Positions 1,762 through 47,769 of a stretch of DNA of 64,000 nt are shown here, one piece after another (within the stretch, counting starts at the first letter, position 1; each line of letters starts with the position of its first letter). Source of the DNA: Carcharhinus amblyrhynchos (taxonomy: Eukaryota); assembly GCA_965287045.1 (NCBI GenBank), contig OZ336878.1:42346001-42410000 (forward strand), in the 5' to 3' direction. The notes under the pieces were generated by a model. It had not been told where the DNA came from and searched no databases. It saw nothing but the letters and a program-made list of their open reading frames with translations. Position numbers and translations under genes: made by a program.

Positions 1762-4200
1762 TTATTGGATAGTTTCCTTGAACAGTGTGTGTTGGAGCCG
1801 ACGAGGGAGCGAGCTATCTTGGATCTGGTGTTATGTAATGAGGTGGGTAGAATTAGGGACCTTGTGGTGAAGGATCCTCTTGGGGAGAGTGATCATTGTA
1901 TGGTGGAGTTTCTGGTGCAGGTGGAGAAGGGCTAGATGGCCTACTCCTGCTCCTATTTCTTATGTTCTTATGTTTATGAAAGTGGGTTCCCGGACACGCG
2001 TCCTTTGTTTGAACAGAGGGGAGTACGGTAGGATGAGAGAAGAATTGGCGAATGTTGACTGGGGGAGCGCGTTGGAAGGTAGGTCTGCTGAGGAGCAGTG
2101 GAGGATCTTTAAGGAGATCTTTCTTGGTGCTCAGCAGAAATTTATTCCGATGGTTAAAAAGGACCATAGGAGGAGAGGTAATAAGCCATGGATAACGAAG
2201 GAGGTGAAGGAAAGTGTTAAATTAAAAGCGGAGGCGTTTGGAGTAGCTAAGAGTAGTGGGCAAGAAGAGGATTGGGAGAGGTTTAAATGTCAACAAAGAT
2301 TGACAAAGAAGTTGATAAAGAAGGGTAGGAGAAACTATGAAGCTGGGCTAGCACTTAATATAAAAAAGGATAGCAAGAGTTTTTATAAATATATAAAAAG
2401 GAAGAGGCTGGCTAGGGTGAACGTTGGACCCTTAGAGGATGAGAGGGGGGACTTAGTGATAGGGAATGGGGAAATGGCTGAGGTCTTGAATAACTTTTTT
2501 GTTTCGGTCTTCACGGAGGAGGACGTGAATAATTTGCCAGGAGTTAGCGATGGAAAGGTGGTAGGACTGGAGGGTCTCAATGACATTATTGTTACTAGAG
2601 AGGCGGTGCTCGACAGACTGGAGGGGCTGATTGTGGACAAGTCGCCAGGACCGGATGGAATGCATCCGAGGGTTCTGAAAGAAATGGCGGAGGTGATAGT
2701 GGATGCCTTGGTGGTTATTTTCCAAACGTCGCTGGATTCCAGGGAAGTGCCGGAAGATTGGAAAACGGCTAATGTTACGTCGTTGTTTAAGAAGGGTGGC
2801 AGGCAAAAGGCAGGGAATTATAGGCCGGTTAGTTTAACGTCTGTTGTAGGTAAAATGTTAGAATCCGTCATCAAGGAGGAAATAGCAAGGCATCTTGAGG
2901 GGAATTGCTTGATAGAGCAGATGCAGCACGGTTTCGTTAAGGGGAAGTCGTGTCTGACAAATTTATTGGAGTTCTATGAGGATGCGTCTAGGGCGGTGGA
3001 TAGAGGAGAGCCGGTGGATGTGGTCTTTCTTGATTTTCAGAAGGCGTTTGACAAGGTACCTCACAAGAGGTTATTGCAGAAGGTTGGGGGTAGGGTGTTA
3101 GCGTGGATAGAGGACTGGTTGTCAAATAGGAGGCAGAGAGTGGGGGTCAATGGGTGCTATTCGGATTGGCGGTTGGTGACGAGTGGAGTGCCCCAGGGGT
3201 CGGTGCTGGGGCCTCAGCTATTTACCATTTATATAGATGATCTGGAGGAGGGAACCGAGTGTATGGTGTCGAAATTTGCTGATGACACCAAGATTGGTGG
3301 AACGGCAAATTGCGCGGAGGGTGTGGAGAGTCTGCAGAAGGATCTAGATAGGCTGGGCGAATGGGCCAAGAACTGGCAAATGGAATTTAATGTTGGCAAG
3401 TGCGAGGTGGTCCACTTTGATAGGAATAATGGTAGGAAGAACTATTACTCACTTGGCGAAAAACTGCAGCAGGCGACGGTGCAGAGGGACCTCGGGGTCC
3501 TTGTGCATGAGTCGCAAAAACCCAGCCTACAGGTGCAGCAGGTGGTCAGGAAGGCTAATGGGATGCTGGCCTTCATAGCGAGGGGGATTGAATGTAAAAG
3601 TAGGGAGGCCTTGCTGCAGCTGTATAGGACATTGGTGAGGCCGCAGCTGGAGTACTGTGTGCAGTTTTGGTCGCCGCACTTACGCAAGGATATTTTGGCC
3701 TTGGAGGCAGTGCAGAGGAGGTTTACTAGGCTGATACCGGAGTTGAGGGGGTTGAGCTATGAGGAGAGGCTGAATAAACTAGGCTTGTACTTGTTAGAGT
3801 TTAGAAGAATGAGGGGAGATCTCATTGAGACATATAAGATGATGAATGGGATGGATAGGATAGAGGTGGAGAGACTCTACCCGCTCAGAAAGGACAGTAG
3901 GACTAGGGGGCACAGCCTCAAGATAAAGGGGGGGCGGTTTAGAACGGAGTTGAGGAGGAACTTCTTCACTCAAAGGGTGGTGAATCTCTGGAATTCTCTG
4001 CCCATTGAAGTGGTGGAGGCTGCCTCGCTAAATATTTTTAAGACGCGGGTTGATGGGTTTTTGATAAGCAAGGGGATTAAGGGTTATGGGGAGAAGGCGG
4101 GAATGTGGAACTGAGCCACGACAGATCAGCCATGATCTTATTGAATGGCGGGGCAGGCTCGAAGGGCTAGATGGCCTACTCCTGCTCCTATTTCTTATGT
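1762..4200 (+). mobile_element. Young 5'-truncated CR1-clade (HER1-like) LINE
   Basis: Endonuclease C-terminus DSFLEQCVLEPTRERAILDLVL...LGESDH from about 1768, the RT ORF, a short 3'UTR and a TTTCTTATGT tail. Confidence 0.95.
1880..4114 (+). CDS. CR1 LINE ORF2 reverse transcriptase (partial; first ~33 aa of the ORF are out of frame or insertion-derived)
   Basis: Motifs KSPGPDG, NYRPVSLTS, QHGF, LDFQKAFDKV, GVPQGSVLGP, FADD, CR1-type C-terminus RRNFFTQRVVNLWNSLP; apparent small in-frame deletion at LLQKVGGRV. Confidence 0.93.
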   Translation: MGRVIIVWWSFWCRWRRARWPTPAPISYVLMFMKVGSRTRVLCLNRGEYGRMREELANVDWGSALEGRSAEEQWRIFKEIFLGAQQKFIPMVKKDHRRRGNKPWITKEVKESVKLKAEAFGVAKSSGQEEDWERFKCQQRLTKKLIKKGRRNYEAGLALNIKKDSKSFYKYIKRKRLARVNVGPLEDERGDLVIGNGEMAEVLNNFFVSVFTEEDVNNLPGVSDGKVVGLEGLNDIIVTREAVLDRLEGLIVDKSPGPDGMHPRVLKEMAEVIVDALVVIFQTSLDSREVPEDWKTANVTSLFKKGGRQKAGNYRPVSLTSVVGKMLESVIKEEIARHLEGNCLIEQMQHGFVKGKSCLTNLLEFYEDASRAVDRGEPVDVVFLDFQKAFDKVPHKRLLQKVGGRVLAWIEDWLSNRRQRVGVNGCYSDWRLVTSGVPQGSVLGPQLFTIYIDDLEEGTECMVSKFADDTKIGGTANCAEGVESLQKDLDRLGEWAKNWQMEFNVGKCEVVHFDRNNGRKNYYSLGEKLQQATVQRDLGVLVHESQKPSLQVQQVVRKANGMLAFIARGIECKSREALLQLYRTLVRPQLEYCVQFWSPHLRKDILALEAVQRRFTRLIPELRGLSYEERLNKLGLYLLEFRRMRGDLIETYKMMNGMDRIEVERLYPLRKDSRTRGHSLKIKGGRFRTELRRNFFTQRVVNLWNSLPIEVVEAASLNIFKTRVDGFLISKGIKGYGEKAGMWN

Positions 4201-12831: not shown

Positions 12832-14082
12832 CATAGAACATAGAACACTACAGCACAAACAGGCCCTTCGGCCCACGAGTTGCGCCAATCACATCAACAC
12901 CTATCTATAACCCCCAATCCCATAAAACCCCATATACTCATCCAGAAGTCGTTTAAAAGACCCCAGCGAGTTCGCCTCCACCACCACTGACGGCAGCCGA
13001 TTCCATTCACTCACCACCCTCTGAGTGAAAAACTTACCCCTAACATCACTTCTGTACTTTCCTCCCCGCACCTTAAATCTGTGTCCTCTTGTAGCGACCA
13101 TTTCAACCCGGGGAAATAGCCTCTGAGAATCCACCCTATCCATTCCTCTCAACATTTTATAAACCTCTATCAGGTCGCCTCTCAACCTTCGTCTCTCCAG
13201 GGAAAAGAGACCCAGCTCCCTCAACCTAACTTCATAAGGCATGCCTCCCAGTCCAGGCAACATCCTTGTAAATCTCCTCTGTACCCTTTCAATAGCTTCT
13301 ACGTCTTTCCTATAGTGAGGCGACCAGAACTGCGCACAGTACTCCAAATGAGGCCTGACAAGGGTCTTATAAAGTTGCAGCATTACCTCCCGACTCCTAA
13401 ACTCAATCCCTCGATTAATGAAGGCCAGTACACCATACGCCTTCTTGACCACCTCTTCCACCTGCGAGGCCGATTTAAGAGTCCTGTGGACCCGGACCCC
13501 AAGATCCTTCTGCTCTTCAACACTACTAAGACTCCTGCCCTTGATGGTGTACTCGTTCATCCCGTTGGTTCTGCCAAAATGGACGACTACGCATTTATCT
13601 GCGTTGAAGCCCACCTGCCACTTCTCCGCCCAGTCCTGCATCCTATTTATGTCCTGCTGCAACTTTTGACATCCTTCCAGACCATCCACAACACCACCGA
13701 CCTTCATGTCATCAGCGAACTTACTTACCCATCCCTCCACTTCCTCATCCAGGTCATTTATGAAAATGACAAACAGCAAGGGTCCTTTAACAGATCCCTG
13801 GGGCACTCCACTGGTGACTGACCTCCATTCAGAAAAAGACCCATCCACAGCCACTCTCTGCCTTCTGCAGGCAAGCCAGTTCGGGATCCACAAGGCCAAA
13901 GGCCCTTGGATCCCATGCCCTCTCACCTTCTCAAGAAGTCTTGCATGGGGGACCTTATCAAACACCTTGCTGAAGTCCATGTACACCACGTCCACGGCAC
14001 TTCCTTCGTCAATGTGTTCAGTCACATTATTGAAGAACTCAACTAGACTTGTAAGGCACAACCTGCCCTTGACAAATCCATC
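12832..14082 (-). mobile_element. 5'-truncated CR1 LINE with open RT frame (ORF 12901-14157)
   Basis: MDFSKVFDKVPH, GVPQGS, FADD, FFTQRVV..WN; (TTCTATG)n tail at 12832-12847; ORF N-terminus above ~14082 is flank read-through. Confidence 0.95.
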
Positions 14083-15124
14083 CTGGCCTCTTCTGGGTTT
14101 CTGTAGGACAGATCCCCTTAGATCTTCAAATCCGAGCCCCCAGAGCAAATTACTCATCCAGAGACAATACCACTACACTACTGCTTCCCCTTTCTGACCT
14201 GTTACTAACTCACTGAGGCAAGTATATGGTACAAAATGCTCCTTCAGTGAAACTGTAAAGCTGGGATGGCTTGAACCGTGGCCAGGCGAGAGGCTGTTGT
14301 TAAAACACTTCTCTCAGTGAGTGCATTCACTACTTTGACAGGTGATTGCCAACTTTCTGGAAGACACTCATGTCTAACATCCCACTCATCTTCAGCTGCA
14401 TTTCCCTGTAGCCAGGTTTTACCATCGCAACGGAGCAGTACATGTATGCCCACTTTCCATCTCTGCTAAGGGCCAAGAGCAGAAGCAGCACCACCACAAT
14501 GAGCAGCAGGAGGAGCAACACACTGCCTTCTCTTCAGCAACATGCCCCTCCATAAAGCAGGAGGGATGGACTCTGAGATCCAAATAGAATGAGGCGAGAG
14601 CCCGAAACACAAAGTCTATAGCAAGTGGTCAGTTCTTTTGCTGAGTCCAAGCACCATTGCCTCAGATGCACAAGCTGCTATGGCAGATCAGTGCTGAGAT
14701 CTGCAGCTTCCTGCAACAAGATCTCCTTCCCTGGTGAGCAGATGGCCATTGCATTGCCAGTGGCTGATAAGATGCCTGTCACTGGAGGGCATATATGCAC
14801 ACAACAATGTCACTCTCGCATGCTGACAACTTCCACCTCTATCTCATTGTTATCTTTCTTAACCCTTTAGCTGTCTATGTGTGTCAGATTACCTGTCTGA
14901 AATCCAGTATCGATGAGCCAAAAATCTTCCCATTAAAGAAAGAAGACATAGCCTTCGAGCTCCTAGTCATCAATTTGATCCCTCTCTCAGACATTGTCTC
15001 AGATTGAACCAGTCTCAGTCTATTGACAATCTTGATAGTCTATTTGACTCACAGTTGAGCTATTAATCTCAAATATTGCTGATCATAAAGACCACAGTCA
15101 GCTCTATGCAGCAATTATGTCTTT

Positions 15125-28162: not shown

Positions 28163-30821
28163 ATCCATTTATAGCTGATTGTTTTACCAATCAGATTCCA
28201 CAAAAAAACTGATCCTTTTCTGATTGTTGAGATTAGGAGCTACAATAACTGCATGTTTCCATAGAAAACACAGCTGCACTGACGGTTCCTGCCAACACCA
28301 TCTTCAGCCTCTGCAGTTAACCTCCCCGAAAAACTAAAAAGCCGGTTGTTTGCTTCTTTTGTACTTTCTGCAGACGTTCCAGAATTATATTTATGCATGC
28401 ATTTTTTGTCTCCAGGTGGGATAAAGGGAAATTCTATATCTGGAGATTAATTTTAAGTTCTGATTCCATGACATTTACTTTATAACTTTTAAATTCTAAG
28501 AAAAATGACCTAAGTAGCTTATAATAGAAAAAAAATTGACTTGTGCACAATTCAGACTCCTCCTCCACACAAGTTAAAAAATGACTTGCCAAAAGGGATT
28601 TTGTGCAGACGATGTAATTACTAATGTTTACATTTGGCAGTTCTTCTTCTCCCTCACTATTTTAGTTACAGCTTCCTCTTGTATTTATTGTCTCTGATAT
28701 AGTTTTTATATGGCTTGCATAATAGGCTTATAGTTTAAAGTTCCCCCTTTTATCTAATGCATGGACTCCAACTAAGCACATGTGTCAAACATTGCTGAAT
28801 GATCCATCTGAGTGAGGTTAAAGGTTGATGAGTAGAAACTTAGAATAATAAAACCCTTTGGCTTAGTAAATAACTCAGTAATTGCTAACAGTATTATCAC
28901 ACAAGTATATAATTTATAATGAAATTGTATTCTGCAAATCCATGAATAATATGAACAATCATTGATGTCGGTGTAACCATATTAAAATTCCCAGTGTCGT
29001 TAGCTAGCCAAACCTGAATTTTTCATTGTCTTCTGTTAACTGTTACTAACAAGTATATTAATTATTAAAAGGACGTATTAACATTTTCTGAGACTTGCTC
29101 TTTACCAAAAGGAAGTTCCTTTGGCAATACTTAGGCCTTGCACTCTTGAGAATATACTGTAGAATGTCGCTAAGTTTCTGGCAGAATAGCGCATGTCTTC
29201 CTCCCACACTTCAATTGGCTTATTTCTACTCAAGGTCTAGATTGAAATGCATTCAGAACATTTTGGAGTTATGCTTCACGTTACAGACCAGGAGGGAGGC
29301 TGGAGGGAGGATTTAGGATCAGAACATGTGTGAGTACAGATTTTGCAAACATATCTTTCTACTTATTGTCCATGTGTTTTGCAGACCGTTGTATCATGCT
29401 TTTGCTTTGCAAGCACATGTTTAAAAATTAAAATGAAAAACATTTCTGATTGCAGGAATGTTTGTGACTCATTGAAGTTACATGTATTTTAATTCTCCTG
29501 GAACATTTTTAGCACTTTAATATGGAGCAAGTTATTGCTGTTAAATTTACATAAAGAACAGTATGGATACTTTGGAGTGTAATTTTCTTATTATTACATC
29601 TTACAACTCACTTAGCTAATTGCATTCATGATTAATAATTAGTATCATAAAGTCTTGAAGGCCAGATAGATTGCAATGGAGTATAGGAAGCGTCACAACT
29701 ACTATTTTTGAAAACCTAACACAAAATACATAAAGTTATAGCAAAAGATGTTCTCTTTGATATTCAGTTCATATAATCATAGAGATATACTGCACAGAAA
29801 CAAACTTTTGGCCCAACTTGTCCATGCTGACCAGGTTTCCTAAACTGAACAATTCATTTGCCTGCGCTTGGCCCACATCCCTCGAAACCTTTCCCATCCA
29901 TCAGTTTTAAAAATAACTTTCAAGTTGAAATGAGGAGAGATGAACAGAGTTTCTACCATGTTCCTTTGAAAAGAACGCTCCAATTAGTCAATTGAGCAAA
30001 CATGCTGAGTTGCTTGAATCAAAGGAATGAGACTTGATGTGCTACATTCCATCAGGACAGTGGAGGCCCTGATGATGGGCTGGAAATCTGGACTCAACCT
30101 GCCTCAACTATCTGAAGGATTTCTGGCAATTTAGAGCAATCCAGCAACTAATTAGCCTGACTCCCAAGGGCTGCTGGCCAAACAGAGGACTGGAAGATCT
30201 TTATGTTCAACAGTGCAACTGAGAGTGGTGGCCATTACTGGGATTGCACCCAGCTGAGAGGACACAACCCTTGCAACCACAAATACGGTCAGGCTAAGGG
30301 CCCAATTTTACCATTTGGTATCTAAGGGCCGGATCCGGGTGTAATACAGATCCAAGCCCGGAATCCTCCTTGCAGCGCGCCCATATGCTTTTCCGGTCTG
30401 ATCCATGCAGTGGGAGGGGCTTAGCGCTGCCGGAGCAATCGGAGCTCTGAACTGCACATGCGCAGTTTGAAAAAAATCTGAAGTAGCGCGCCCGGGTGGG
30501 AAAGAAAAAGCAGAGAGAGCAGCTCTCCGACACATAGAAGAGTTGGCAATAATTATGCCGGCCCTTGTTAGAGAAAATATTGTTCTAACAATCTGATAAT
30601 ACTATTAAACTCAAAGCTTTTGTTGAAAGATTACATTTGCATCCATTTCAACTGTCTACTTTTGTCTCAGTAATGAATGTGAGCTGCTTGGGTTATTTTG
30701 GACTGATTGTGTCTACTTGCAGGGTTCAAGTGAAAAATAAAATTTGCATTTCTGAGTATCTTTGACCAGTAAAAAGTCTGACAACACCAGGTTTTAGTCC
30801 AACCTATTTATTTGATAATAT

Positions 30822-30861
30822 ACTCACTAGCTTTCGGGGTTACCCCCTTCGTCAGGTGAAT
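30822..30861 (-). ncRNA. Minimal type-I hammerhead ribozyme motif (inverted copy)
   Basis: Exact reverse complement of 31854-31893. Confidence 0.7.
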
Positions 30862-30996
30862 GGAGAGTTCTGGCCTCAGACAGAGCATATAAAGCACAGA
30901 CAGTTTAGAGATTACTGATTACTCATAGATCGGCAGTTCCGATGCGCCACAGCGAAAAACCGCACCGATCTCCTCAGAAGGCAAACACAGGACACA

Positions 30997-31641
30997 GTGG
31001 ACAGAGTACCCTTCGTCGTCCAGTACTTCCCCGGAGCGGAGAAGCTACGACATCTTCTCCGGAGTCTTCAACATATCATTGATGAAGACGAACATCTCGC
31101 CAGGGCCATCCCCACACCCCCACTTCTTGCTTTCAGACAACCACACAACCTCAAACAGACCATTGTTCGCAGCAAACTACCCAGCCTTCAGGAGAACAGT
31201 GACCACAATACCACACAACCCTGTCACAGCAACCTCTGCAAGACATGCCGGATCATCGACATGGATACCATCATCACACGTGAGAATACCATCCACCAGG
31301 TACATGGTAAATACTCTTGCAACTCGGCCAACATTGTCTACCTGATACGTTGCAAGAAAGGATGTCCCGAAGCATGGTACATTGGGGAGACCATGCAGAC
31401 GCTACGACAACGGATGAATGAACATCGCTCGACAGTCACCAGGCAAGACTGTTCCCTTCCTGTTGGCGAACACTTCAGTGGTCACGGGCATTCAGCCTCT
31501 GACCTTCGGGTAAGCATTCTCCAAGGCAGCCTTCACGACACACGACAGCACAGAGTCGCTGAGCAGAGACTGATAGCCAAGTTCCGCACACATGAGGACG
31601 GTCTCAACAGGGATCTTGGGTTCATGTCGCACTATCTGTAA
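30997..31641 (+). CDS. Penelope-like GIY-YIG endonuclease (C-terminal part of the polyprotein; frame open from ~30922)
   Basis: Linker C..xC..C (PCHSNLCKTC), NIVYLIRC...C...WYIGET..TLRQRMNEHR, VGEHF..GH, AEQRLI..F....GLN. Confidence 0.93.
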   Translation: MDRVPFVVQYFPGAEKLRHLLRSLQHIIDEDEHLARAIPTPPLLAFRQPHNLKQTIVRSKLPSLQENSDHNTTQPCHSNLCKTCRIIDMDTIITRENTIHQVHGKYSCNSANIVYLIRCKKGCPEAWYIGETMQTLRQRMNEHRSTVTRQDCSLPVGEHFSGHGHSASDLRVSILQGSLHDTRQHRVAEQRLIAKFRTHEDGLNRDLGFMSHYL

Positions 31642-31853
31642 CCCCCATGACTTGCCTGGGTTTGCAAAACCTCACTTACTGTACTGTTTGGAGACAATAC
31701 ACATCTCTTTAAACTGTGATCAGTGCTCCTTCCACTCACATTATCAGCCACTTCAGGTCTTGAACAGCAGGTTAGGTGTAAGGATTCGCATTTTAATCAG
31801 TAATCTCTAAACTGTCTGTGCTTTATATGCTCTGTCTGAGGCCAGAACTCTCC

Positions 31854-31893
31854 ATTCACCTGACGAAGGGGGTAACCCCGAAAGCTAGTGAGT
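31854..31893 (+). ncRNA. Minimal type-I hammerhead ribozyme motif
   Basis: AUUCAC-CUGACGA-AG-GGGG-UAA-CCCC-GAAA-GC-UA-GUGAGU: stem I, CUGANGA box, stem II, GAAA box, palindromic AGCU in place of stem III, UH site at 31886-31887. Confidence 0.75.
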
Positions 31894-33324
31894 ATATTAT
31901 CAAATAAATAGGTTGGACTAAAACCTGGTGTTGTCAGACTTTTTACTGTGTTTACGCCAGTCCAATGCCGGCATACCCACATCATATCTTTGACCACACA
32001 GAACAAAGTACATTCATATCATTTTGAGTGTCTGTTCATTCCTGCTGTCACAGAGATGTCTCCCCATCAACATATTGTAAAATAAATATATAACAAACCC
32101 AGTACTTGAAGCATATATCCTGAAGCAACAGTTGTTTAGAAGAAATTTCTAGTTCCAGGAATGTCTAGGATATACTTAAACAGTGTCAGAAGTTTAATCT
32201 TTTAGATCAAGTAAATGTATTGATAGTTTATGCAGGAAAATTAGTTGATTAACTTTCTAAAGTGCAACAATATTTTGAAACGAGATGCTTTTTACTGTTA
32301 AAGGATAGGAATTAAAATATTCAATGGTTTAAGTGCCTGGAATGGTTTAAGTCCTCCCCCCCTTCTCCCCTCAACCAGAGACCCACCCTCTTCCTCTCCT
32401 CCACTCCCCAACCAGAGATCCATCTGAGCCCACCCTCTCCTCCGGTGGACACCAGCAGAACGGTGTAAAGCCTGGTTACTTCAGCCATGGCTCCAAGTCT
32501 GTGGCCAGGAGGATGCAGCAGGCTCTCGAAGGACTGAAGATGGCTGAGAAGGATGGTGGAGGGAGGCCACCAAGCGAGGCAGGTTGGAGGTGTGGTCTGC
32601 TGAAGGAGGCCTGCATCCCAGAGGGATCTGATCCGGGGGGTCAGCAGGGAGTGGGATGCTCTGCCAGGAAGTCTGCCTCCCGTCGGGGGGATCTGCCTCC
32701 AGGGAAGAGGTGGTTGGTCTGCTGGGGTGGTTAGCGGGGTGGGTGGGGGTGGGGGGGGGGGGGGGATCTGCCAGGGTGAGTGGGGTGGAGAGATTGCCAG
32801 TGCTGGGGGGCATGGGCTGGATATCGGGGTACTCTGAGAAGGATGGTGGAGAAGGATGGTGGCCGCAGACTGATTTCACAAGGGCAGAGAGAGCTTCGGA
32901 GGTTCCCCTGCAGAAGAGAAATCCACTTCAGATTTTCATTTTGCAGGTCGCTTACAGCGCGGATCCGGAACGGACCAGAAGAAGGTAAAGTGGGATTTGG
33001 TGGTTGAGTTGGGCACAGTTGATCAAATCAATTTAAATGCATGCTAATGTATTTAAATTGTCAGGCTCCCTGATTCGGGCGTGGACCGGATCCGTGCCCG
33101 AATCGGGTGTCGGTAAAATTGCGATTTGCTTGGACGCCTGAATTTACCACAATTTCGTGCCCGAAAAAAGGTGGAAATTGTTGGTAAAATTGGGCCCTAA
33201 GAGACGACTTAGACAGGCTCTGGTGAGGGAGGGTATTAGTAAGGGCAGAGGAGATGGCATCTCAGAGTGCCAAATTAGTAGGTCCCCTCACAACCCAAGG
33301 GAGACAACTAGGATTCACCAGGCT

Positions 33325-45178: not shown

Positions 45179-45899
45179 GTGCCATTTTTGTGCCCTCCTA
45201 CTGGCAAGCTTGGCAGTAGAGGGTTCATTTAATCAGGCGGGAGGGTAGTGAGTGGAGATCCTTCCACCTTTCCATCTTAACTCTGATTAAGTTCGTGGCA
45301 GGAAGTTCCATGAACTGCCCGCCCATTCTACCACCTCATTCAAAGGCACCCAGTACCTGATCAACAAACCTGGAAATGGGAAGGCTTGCTCCTTGCTCCG
45401 TCCCCCCTCCCCTGTGATCCCATCCTGCAACAGTCCTCCCATCATCACTAATCTGTGGCCTGGGTCTATCCATGTTTCTAGGCATTCTGTGTGTGTCGTA
45501 CCAGCAGAAACCACCATCTCCCCAGTGGCACTGCTGTGCAATAGAATCACTGGCCTCTGATTGTTGACTGCCCTTGTCTTGGCTCTTCCACTCCAGGGGT
45601 CTTTAATTACTGACCTGTCAGGTGCCTTTCCCAAAAGAGGTTATGCGAACCTCTTGCTGACTCTCCAGCCACTATTTGAAATAAGCACATTGACACGACA
45701 TTAAGATTGACAGATTGTTGCTAGCCAGGGATATGAAGGGATATGGAGTTAGGTCATAGATCTAGTTAAATGGCAGAACAAGCTCCAGGGGTTAAACAGT
45801 TTTCTCTTTTTCCTATGTTCTTAAACAAGATCCATCAATGCTGTGCAGGTTGGGCAGATTAATTGTCATGCATGATCTGATCTTTCATGAGTGAAACAA

Positions 45900-46245
45900 C
45901 TATGGAAGATTTTCTTCTTGTAGTTAAGAATGTAAACAGAGACATGAAAGCCCTAATTGCAGGCATTAACTTTTACAAAGATCAACAGGGATGATTACAT
46001 TGGAAACTGCCGAGTTTATGGTTGCAGCAATTATTTTTGCTGTCATTGCAATGAGATGAAAGTGAAGAAGACAATGATGACAGTTTGCTGAATTGGTCAT
46101 CCACTTAAACAATGATGAACGAATATAAATTGATGAAGACAATGTGCAAAAATGCCTCAATGTATTACTGAAAGTACAAAGAATGATTGAATAAGAAAGA
46201 ATGACTGCCAGAAGGCAATCAAAGGTAAATTACTTTTTTGATTAA
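45900..46245 (+). pseudogene. Possible Tigger/pogo transposase C-terminal remnant
   Basis: Acidic DESEEDNDD followed by ERMTARRQSKVNYFF, resembling the KQxKITDFF end of pogo-type transposases. Confidence 0.35.
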
Positions 46246-47769
46246 CATCTTGCCTTACCTACTCTGACATTGTAAATGTTCTGTAAATTCTTGCACTGTA
46301 TTTTAAACTTGTACAACTATACAAGCTGTTTGGTGACATGAAAGAACACAGAACAAAAATACTTTATTTTTTCCTCAGAAAAATGATGTTATGTTAATAT
46401 ATTGAAGTGTTGTAATGTTTTAGAGGATATACCTTAATGATGTTCCCAAATCTTTTAATTTTAAAGTGTGGGTACTTCACTGAGCAAAAGTTAGCATTAA
46501 ATAATGAATGGCAAACTAACAAAGATATCTCTACACCCAGCAATACCAAAGAAACCTCTTGGACACTTATGAAGCTTCAAATTCTTGGCCTATAAAGCCC
46601 CCATTACATCATAAAACTAAATATATCGATTTATATCATAGTTTCTTGTTGTGTTTTGTGTTCTTGAGTTTTGTGAAAGAATTTGGTTTTCCTAATGAAT
46701 GCATTTATCTTTCAACTGTTCATTTGAGATTTACTTTGTAATCTAGTCTTCATTCCCACGGCACATAATGGCTGCTGAGAATTTGGCTTAGAATAAAAGA
46801 AATATAATAAAATTTGTTGCGCTTTCTGTAATACACTGGGGCACATTTGCACATTGTCTTCATCAATTAATATTTCACCTCTTCTACGTTGGCAGCAAAA
46901 ATAATTGCTGCATGTATAGACTCAGCATTTTCCAAGACATTCATCCATGTTTATCTTTGTCAAAGTTAATTCCTGCAATTAGGGTTTTCTTTTACAAATT
47001 TAACTATGAGAGAAAACTTTTCTATCATTGTTTCATTTATGAAAGATCAGTCCCAATAGGTTTCGTTTGGTTTTGTAAGAGTAATTTGATTGGTAAGAGT
47101 TGAAAAATCAGATGGAGACATGTGTCATAAAGGCTTAAGTAATTATACTTGCAAATTAGACATAAAGAGTTACTAAGCACAACAAAAAAATGACAAATAT
47201 TGCATACTTCAGCCAAGAGCATTGAAGGTTAATTTCCCTTACCTAAAGGTTCCCTCACCTTAAAAATTGCCACACTGTCTTTTGCTGATTTAAACCCCAA
47301 GACTGAGATATTTTTGCTTTGGCATTCACCAACCAATTTTCTCTTTTGTTTAAATAAATAGGGGAAAATCACTTGTAGAAAATGCAAACTAAAACAGTCC
47401 AAGATGCTCCCTCCAATTTTCAGATCTTCAGGTTTTCTTTTATGATACAGGTAATGCCAGCTTATCATATGGAATTCCTCCACCTGATTTCTCAGGGTGC
47501 CAAATGAATAGAGGATCTGCATATTACCATTCAATCTTGCGTTAAAAGCTTCTAAAACAGGGCTCCCATACAGTTCTGTTTAAAATGAAATGGAATGCCC
47601 ATTCTATGAAATTTGAACCTAAAATTGGATGAGTTTTATTCAATAAAGCCATATGAAATGTGTTCTCTTGGAATATGGGTGACATGCTTTGTTTCCTTGC
47701 CTGGATGCATTAAGGATCACCATGTAGTAATCCTTTTTTCTGGTGCAGGCTCACAAATTACTAGATTTA

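What the first reader, a model, noticed from the sequence alone, without database searches (positions are those of the whole stretch)
30757..31996. Young Penelope-like insertion: GIY-YIG ORF clamped by a perfect 155-bp inverted repeat and a 12-bp TSD
Seen: arms 30767-30921 and 31794-31948 appear identical by eye, TATCTTTGACCA flanks both sides, and the endonuclease frame has no stops while the RT domain is absent. Known: Penelope-like elements often insert 5'-truncated with an inverted partial pseudo-LTR. Inference: this is a very recent insertion from a probably active family. Any read-through transcript would fold into a 155-bp dsRNA stem looping out the endonuclease ORF, a possible small-RNA or ADAR substrate.
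Basis: partly seen in the sequence, partly recalled or inferred. Interest (0 to 1): 0.7.

Follow-up and report, generated by a model that had tools for sequence, protein, structure and literature searches.

The report
Ordinary truncated Penelope retrotransposon copy
This is one of several hundred near-identical, broken-off copies of a known kind of jumping gene, laid down in that kind's usual mirror-image layout; the copy itself is ordinary, but its family shows a strict one-long-end, one-short-end rule that likely records how these elements copy themselves into DNA.

Summary
In detail: 155-bp arms, 100% complementary, a 12-bp duplication, and an open GIY-YIG frame. A paralogous empty site carries the target once.

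It is a 5'-truncated EN+ Penelope-like element of Neptune/Nematis type. It holds the last 240 of 893 codons, with no start or promoter of its own.

The layout is the family norm. There are 1,007 exact hammerhead 29-mers genome-wide. Of 73 positionally sampled loci, 55 are inverted, each pairing one tailed with one tail-less arm.

Full-length open copies and a subfamily 99.7-100% identical exist, so the family was recently active. "Very recent" is not shown for this copy: it differs from the family majority at 5 of 1,048 sites (3 CpG), and identical 155-bp arms are expected half the time. The dsRNA stem is predicted; transcription is untested.

Likely mechanism: both staggered nicks prime reverse transcription, one at each of two start sites, and the cDNAs join head-to-head. 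The scan has noted this layout in other genomes (32 notes).

The parts
30757..30768 (+). Left copy of the 12-bp target-site duplication; its last 2 nt overlap the left arm
   Evidence: single copy at the paralogous empty site L072; family duplications 11-15 bp
30767..30921 (-). Inverted, tail-less arm: 155 nt of the pseudo-LTR starting at start site B (unit position 2989, 36 nt short of the tail end)
30823..30860 (-). Minimal type I hammerhead motif in the left arm; activity untested
   Evidence: motif located; reverse complement of the right-arm copy
30921..31984 (+). Direct, tailed arm: 3' 1,064 nt of the 3,025-nt unit (unit positions 1962-3025)
30919..31641 (+). Headless end of the ORF, aa 654-893 of the 893-aa protein: CX4CxxC linker finger, GIY-YIG core with two internal Cys, downstream His pair
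31642..31948 (+). 3' untranslated part / pseudo-LTR; 31794-31948 is the right arm of the inverted repeat
   Evidence: L060 carries the same stretch as a direct repeat before its ATG
31855..31892 (+). Minimal type I hammerhead motif: 5-bp stem I, core at 31860-31866, 4-bp stem II, GAAA at 31880-31883, palindromic mini stem III, predicted cut after 31887
   Evidence: read from the sequence; stems I and II predicted; no Rfam hit; architecture as in PMC4209133
31949..31984 (+). 36-nt tail between start sites B and A; A sits at the ATG of the next unit
31985..31996 (+). Right copy of the target-site duplication
30294..33015 (.). Older dispersed repeat of unidentified class into which the element inserted (80-88% to L071/L072 over long stretches; ends approximate)

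Best explanation
This is a 5'-truncated copy of a multicopy Penelope-like retrotransposon, with a head-to-head inverted end, a tail on one arm only and a 12-bp target duplication, likely made in one insertion event in which both nicked target strands primed reverse transcription. Shown: the anatomy, the family, and the one-tailed/one-tail-less rule. Inferred: a full-length element's protein cut the target with a 12-13-nt stagger. One 3' end primed cDNA at start site B and the other at start site A, 36 nt further 3' on the RNA, usually on the same RNA molecule and sometimes on a second one. The two cDNAs (155 and 1,064 nt here) were then joined head-to-head by a template jump or end joining. 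The copy is probably inert. If it lies in a transcript, the arms would pair and would block both hammerheads.
For: Identity. Rule: of 73 loci taken in genome order, 54 were scored tailed+tail-less, 14 solo tail-less, 4 solo tailed and 1 tailed+tailed. That last locus, L118, reads as tailed+tail-less by eye. All 54 have 11-15-bp duplications. Both start sites occur alone with a duplication (solo B: L073, L084, L085, L117, 11-15 bp; solo A: L043, L135), so B is a start and not just a stop. Either arm can be the longer one (tail-less longer in 23, tailed longer in 11 of 55 after correcting L118). Inner ends coincide within 10 nt in 21 of 55, against 4.4 by permutation (maximum 14 in 20,000), as expected if both cDNAs run off one RNA end. 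Arms share lineage markers 36 times and differ 23 times, against 5.9 and 78.2 for independent templates. Target/template microhomology averages 1.5 and 1.4 nt at the two ends in 64 loci, against 0.36 and 0.29 for a one-sided null. In vitro, the Anolis element cuts and extends both strands and starts at two adjacent sites that bound the tail (PMC11167929).
Against: All mechanistic evidence is from genomic end-products. Coincident inner ends and shared markers fit fold-back self-priming equally well. One tail-less+tail-less insertion with a perfect hairpin centre and a 13-bp duplication exists (L172; 1 of 14 inverted loci in a third set of 21). Thirteen of 86 inverted loci have arms discordant at non-CpG markers, 5 at two or more, which a single RNA cannot give without a switch or later conversion. 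L058's arms share 2 private changes while differing at 4 markers, which no simple model fits. The microhomology null should be roughly doubled (about 0.7) because either side can extend by chance. In the Anolis assay the start site did not differ between strands. The 73-locus sample required an exact hammerhead 29-mer in one arm.
Confidence: 0.6

Rival explanations
1. Single priming at site A, then the cDNA folds back on itself and is copied back to site B, where the endonuclease resolves it. Later deletions at the palindrome centre make the arms unequal.
For: 21 of 55 near-perfect hairpin centres; 26 private changes shared by both arms in 43.7 kb of overlap; L172 has a perfect hairpin centre. 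Self-priming was proposed in PMC3846280 (Discussion, there on an antisense template) and EN-mediated resolution of the tail in PMC8557442.
Against: The tail-less arm is the longer in 23 of 55 loci, by up to 1.4 kb. Solo tail-less copies have their own duplications. Five loci have arms from different lineages at two or more markers. Each of these needs an extra event.
Confidence: 0.25
2. A protein dimer always carries two RNAs and each subunit primes one strand; the arms match because both RNAs usually come from the same source locus.
For: Discordant arms in 13 of 86 loci; a dimer was predicted for the Anolis protein (PMC11167929).
Against: It does not by itself explain inner ends centred on zero offset even in kilobase-long arms (for example L141 at 2195/2192 and L087 at 2387/2386), nor why two RNAs would nearly always use different start sites.
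Confidence: 0.12
3. The copy is a very recent, possibly polymorphic insertion whose hairpin acts as a dsRNA trigger for editing or small RNAs.
For: Arms identical; 155-bp stem in both the minimum-energy and the centroid fold. No filled left junction was among the pieces shown for four runs of other organisms.
Against: Five differences from the family majority, 3 at CpG; identical arms expected half the time; right-junction contigs in two samples; hundreds of loci share the layout, many with longer stems. No host exon was found among 119 of 156 frames of 75 aa or more, though short exons would be missed.
Confidence: 0.08

Closest known systems
EN+ Penelope-like insertions with inverted pLTR, one-sided tail and TSD (Pen2a_Av, PMC3846280; general scheme in PMC8557442 Fig. 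2)
   Same: 5' truncation, head-to-head inverted 3' segment, 30-40-nt tail at one end, short target duplication. Pen2a's inverted pLTR is 37 bp shorter than the direct one.
   Different: Here there are hundreds of copies about 99% alike, so the rule can be counted; duplications are 11-15 bp against 8-10 bp in the rotifer examples.
Neptune / Nematis clades of EN+ PLEs (PMC8557442)
   Same: C-terminal GIY-YIG with CCHH pattern, CX2-5CxxC finger in the RT-EN linker, DKG motif.
   Different: Neptune and Nematis were not told apart: no reference sequences were available for a tree.
PAc, Poseidon element of Anolis carolinensis (PMC11167929)
   Same: Two start sites bounding the tail; hammerhead in the pLTR.
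   Different: Poseidon lacks the linker finger. PAc's start sites lie about 111-118 nt inside the ORF; here site A is at the ATG and the hammerhead is about 100 nt upstream of it.
Minimal hammerheads of metazoan PLEs (PMC4209133)
   Same: Type I motif with short stem I, an unpaired nucleotide before stem II and a palindromic remnant of stem III; that paper also notes pairs on opposite strands 100-700 bp apart.
   Different: Stem II is 4 bp here against 7-8 bp in the Schistosoma examples; cleavage untested.
LINE-1 twin priming (recalled; only a search listing)
   Same: A second target nick primes a second cDNA and leaves an inverted 5' part.
   Different: In L1 the two parts are non-overlapping pieces of one RNA; here both start at the 3' end, so they form an inverted repeat.

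Membership tests
EN+ Penelope-like elements | Single ORF with RT followed by a C-terminal GIY-YIG endonuclease | tested here: met
   Full copy L060: 893 aa, RVT_1 E 1.4e-9, YIDD and DKG motifs, GIY-YIG at the C-terminus. The window holds only aa 654-893.
EN+ Penelope-like elements | [quoted passage not shown] | tested here: met
   motif scan; criterion from PMC8557442
EN+ Penelope-like elements | Pseudo-LTRs in tandem or inverted arrangement, 30-40-nt tail, target duplication | tested here: met
EN+ Penelope-like elements | Hammerhead motif in the pLTR | tested here: met
   Motif read from the sequence and fold; Rfam gave no hammerhead hit
EN+ Penelope-like elements | RT groups with PLE/telomerase RTs in a phylogeny | not tested
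   No reference set at hand; no homologue search was run; no PDB sequence hit at E <= 1
Neptune/Nematis clades | [quoted passage not shown] | tested here: met
   CX4CxxC at aa 755-763 of L060, also present in the window frame
Neptune/Nematis clades | Placement in Neptune rather than Nematis by RT tree | not tested
   no references
Penelope/Poseidon clade | Absence of the linker finger | tested here: not met
   Finger present; criterion from PMC8557442
Autonomous or domesticated endonuclease gene | Own start codon and complete domain set | tested here: not met
   Frame begins at the inversion junction; first Met at residue 115; no RT
Active hammerhead ribozyme | Self-cleavage | not testable with these tools
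   Core intact. Minimal PLE hammerheads cut poorly alone (PMC4209133) and the PAc one needed protein; here it is predicted to be sequestered in the 155-bp stem.

The most novel reading that the evidence does not exclude
This young family records a near-obligatory asymmetric twin priming. One RNA is read from two fixed start sites 36 nt apart, one for each nicked target strand. That would explain the inverted repeats and the one-sided tail of Penelope-like elements in a single step, and would tie the two start sites seen in vitro to the two ends of each genomic insertion.
Probability: 0.4. Interest if true: 0.55.

Novelty: new member of a known kind. Interest (0 to 1): 0.22.

Why it matters
The locus itself matters little. 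How Penelope-like elements form their tandem and inverted structures is called still undefined in PMC8557442. A family with hundreds of 99%-identical insertions, lineage markers and two sharp start sites lets that question be tested by counting. It also gives concrete predictions for the existing in vitro system. Five searches listed no paper whose title or abstract offers such counts or a twin-priming model for these elements. Most listed papers were not read, subscription papers are outside the library, and supplements were not seen.

Tried and rejected
Rfam: no hammerhead hit, two chance snoRNA scores. PDB by sequence: nothing at E <= 1.

Host gene: Pfam on 119 of 156 frames of 75 aa or more found three RT fragments and one sub-threshold ribosomal S19e match, so no host gene was identified and the intron question stays open.

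Expression: no RNA holder listed; this is no evidence either way.

Presence in other organisms: inconclusive. Contigs with an empty junction appear in X7 and X8, but they carry 3-4 differences in 66-89 nt and may be paralogues of the host repeat. No filled left junction was among the pieces shown; 604 pieces were not shown.

ADAR footprint: no hyper-edited arm among 195 arms (at most 4 A>G). Private changes shared by both arms are 8 A>G to 0 T>C, against 19 to 15 for arm-specific ones (one-sided p about 0.02, by hand, post hoc). Kept as a lead only.

Circular RNA template: L064 joins L060's ORF and 3' pLTR to the tail found in L060's 5' pLTR, with the crossover spanning the hammerhead cut. But that is 1 of 9 tailed members, and that tail occurs at 128 places genome-wide, so it is not accepted as evidence.

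The subfamily marker proved to be shared with an older lineage. One search returned nothing because of a script error, fixed.

Full report
Observation. The arms, their coordinates, their 100% complementarity and the 12-bp direct repeat are as described. The frame 30919-31641 is open for 240 codons and matches Pfam GIY-YIG at the curated cut-off. The left flank belongs to an older repeat with 28 matches in the genome. Its paralogue L072 carries the target once and runs straight into the right flank. The duplication was therefore made by the insertion.

What it is. A search of the own genome gave 3,619 candidates, of which 40 were scored; the 40 best places were 97-100% identical. An exact 29-mer from the arm occurs 1,007 times, the reversed control 0 times. 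L060 holds a full unit of 3,025 nt with an open 893-aa frame, an RT domain and an upstream pseudo-LTR. Open full-length frames also lie in L176 (two units in tandem) and L193. The window holds unit positions 1962-3025 directly and 2835-2989 inverted, that is aa 654-893, with the first Met at residue 115 of the fragment. A CX4CxxC linker finger and the CCHH pattern place it with Neptune/Nematis and outside Penelope/Poseidon by the criteria of PMC8557442 (passages); no tree was built. Each arm holds a minimal type I hammerhead (31855-31892 on +, 30823-30860 on -), of the kind described in PMC4209133 (first quarter and passages). Rfam does not detect it.

The layout is the family norm. Among the 40 best-scoring loci, 36 have an adjacent inverted arm; this set is biased towards long direct arms. 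For a fairer sample I took all 73 loci behind the first 100 pattern matches in genome order. All 27 close pairs were head-to-head. Of the 73, 54 were scored as one tailed plus one tail-less arm, 14 as solo tail-less, 4 as solo tailed and 1 as tailed+tailed. That one, L118, reads as tailed+tail-less with an 8-nt duplication by eye. Tailed ends fall at the ATG of the next unit; tail-less ends fall mostly 29-39 nt earlier. All 54 have duplications of 11-15 bp, mode 12-13. A third set of 21 loci, picked by an ORF marker, gave 13 tailed+tail-less, 1 tail-less+tail-less (L172) and 7 solo. The one-sided tail and inverted copy are described in PMC3846280 (passages and Discussion) and PMC8557442.

Age. 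The family was active recently: 9 loci are 99.7-100% identical to L060. This copy is not among them. It differs from the family majority at 5 of 1,048 sites; 3 are CpG transitions and 1 is seen in no other locus. At the family's arm divergence of 0.45%, two 155-nt arms are identical 50% of the time. Contigs spanning the right junction appear in samples S1 and S2 (18 and 22 element letters, below the tool's 31-letter rule, so a hint); S2's flanks differ at 8 of 2,279 sites. Two other organisms differ by about 1.2% in the flanks; presence there could not be decided. If the host mutates at the epaulette shark rate of 7e-10 per site per generation (PMC10587355, abstract only), 2-5 changes correspond to 2.7-6.8 million generations. 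CpG hypermutability and copying errors make that an overestimate, and the host taxon was not tested.

How it most likely formed. Inference from end-products. Both start sites occur alone with their own duplication, so both can prime. Either arm can be the longer (23 tail-less, 11 tailed of 55, after correcting L118), which a single fold-back from the tail cannot give without later deletion. Inner ends coincide within 10 nt in 21 of 55 loci, against 4.4 by permutation. Arms share non-CpG lineage markers 36 times and differ 23 times, against 5.9 and 78.2 if templates were independent. Target-template microhomology is raised at both ends (1.5 and 1.4 nt in 64 loci; null 0.36 and 0.29, about 0.7 if doubled). 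The simplest reading is that the two staggered nicks each prime a cDNA, one at each start site, mostly on one RNA. A first cDNA begun at site B leaves the tail free for a second start at site A. This fits the Anolis protein, which cuts and extends both strands and starts at two sites bounding the tail (PMC11167929, first half read), although no strand difference in start site was seen there. Against it: fold-back explains hairpin centres as well; L172 has two tail-less ends; 13 of 86 loci have discordant arms, 5 at two or more markers; and L058 fits no simple model. In the window the tailed arm is 873 nt longer, a minority class.

The dsRNA idea. Folding the 1,240-nt insertion gives the 155-bp stem in both the minimum-energy and the centroid structure, with the sense hammerhead inside it. 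On either strand the antisense arm would be transcribed first, so cleavage would likely be blocked. Whether the place is transcribed is unknown: no host gene was identified. No arm among 195 is hyper-edited; an 8:0 A>G to T>C skew among changes shared by both arms is a weak, post hoc lead.

Verdict. Real, ordinary, a new member of a known kind. The scan's earlier notes report the same layout in at least 6 genomes (read after my analysis, unchecked). The value lies in the family-level counts, which make an open mechanistic question testable. Supplements of the cited papers were not seen and may hold comparable end maps.

Noticed in passing
L175, L177, L179, L180, L182, L184, L189, L191, L192: Mini-elements made of the pLTR end joined to the first 60-135 nt of the ORF, repeated in partial tandems (L175 unit about 340 bp) and still ending with tailed/tail-less arms. 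They resemble the PLE-derived retrozymes of bioRxiv 10.64898/2026.07.22.740005 (passages) and suggest a circular or wrapped template.
   Followed up: partly
L064 (G000:C1, near 107,218,000) versus L060: ORF and 3' pLTR identical to L060 but with the tail of L060's 5' pLTR; the crossover lies in an 84-nt stretch that contains the predicted hammerhead cut. Single case.
   Followed up: yes
L172:401-4952: Near-perfect 4.55-kb palindrome with two tail-less ends and a 13-bp duplication, in the youngest subfamily; the only such case seen.
   Followed up: partly
L060:1301-7666; L032; L055: Inverted arms of 2.3-3.0 kb at 99.7-99.9% identity persist in this genome, far longer hairpins than the window's.
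   Followed up: partly
window 32444-32584 (+): 47-aa stretch with a weak match to ribosomal protein S19e (E 7e-5, below cut-off) inside the host repeat; possibly a captured pseudogene fragment or chance.
   Followed up: no
window 30294-30313 and 33182-33201: 20-nt inverted pair, 95% complementary, near the ends of the host repeat; it may mark a terminal-inverted-repeat element.
   Followed up: no
window 1871-4111 (+) and 12904-14172 (-): Open RT frames of 747 and 423 aa of LINE-like type, with several related copies in the window.
   Followed up: no
window 45877-46076 and 46852-47050: Old inverted repeat, about 200 bp at 74% identity, unrelated to this family.
   Followed up: no
G000:C21:47,700,298-48,247,095: Twelve same-strand copies of one tail variant spaced mostly 35-90 kb apart, suggesting a segmental tandem array.
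   Followed up: no
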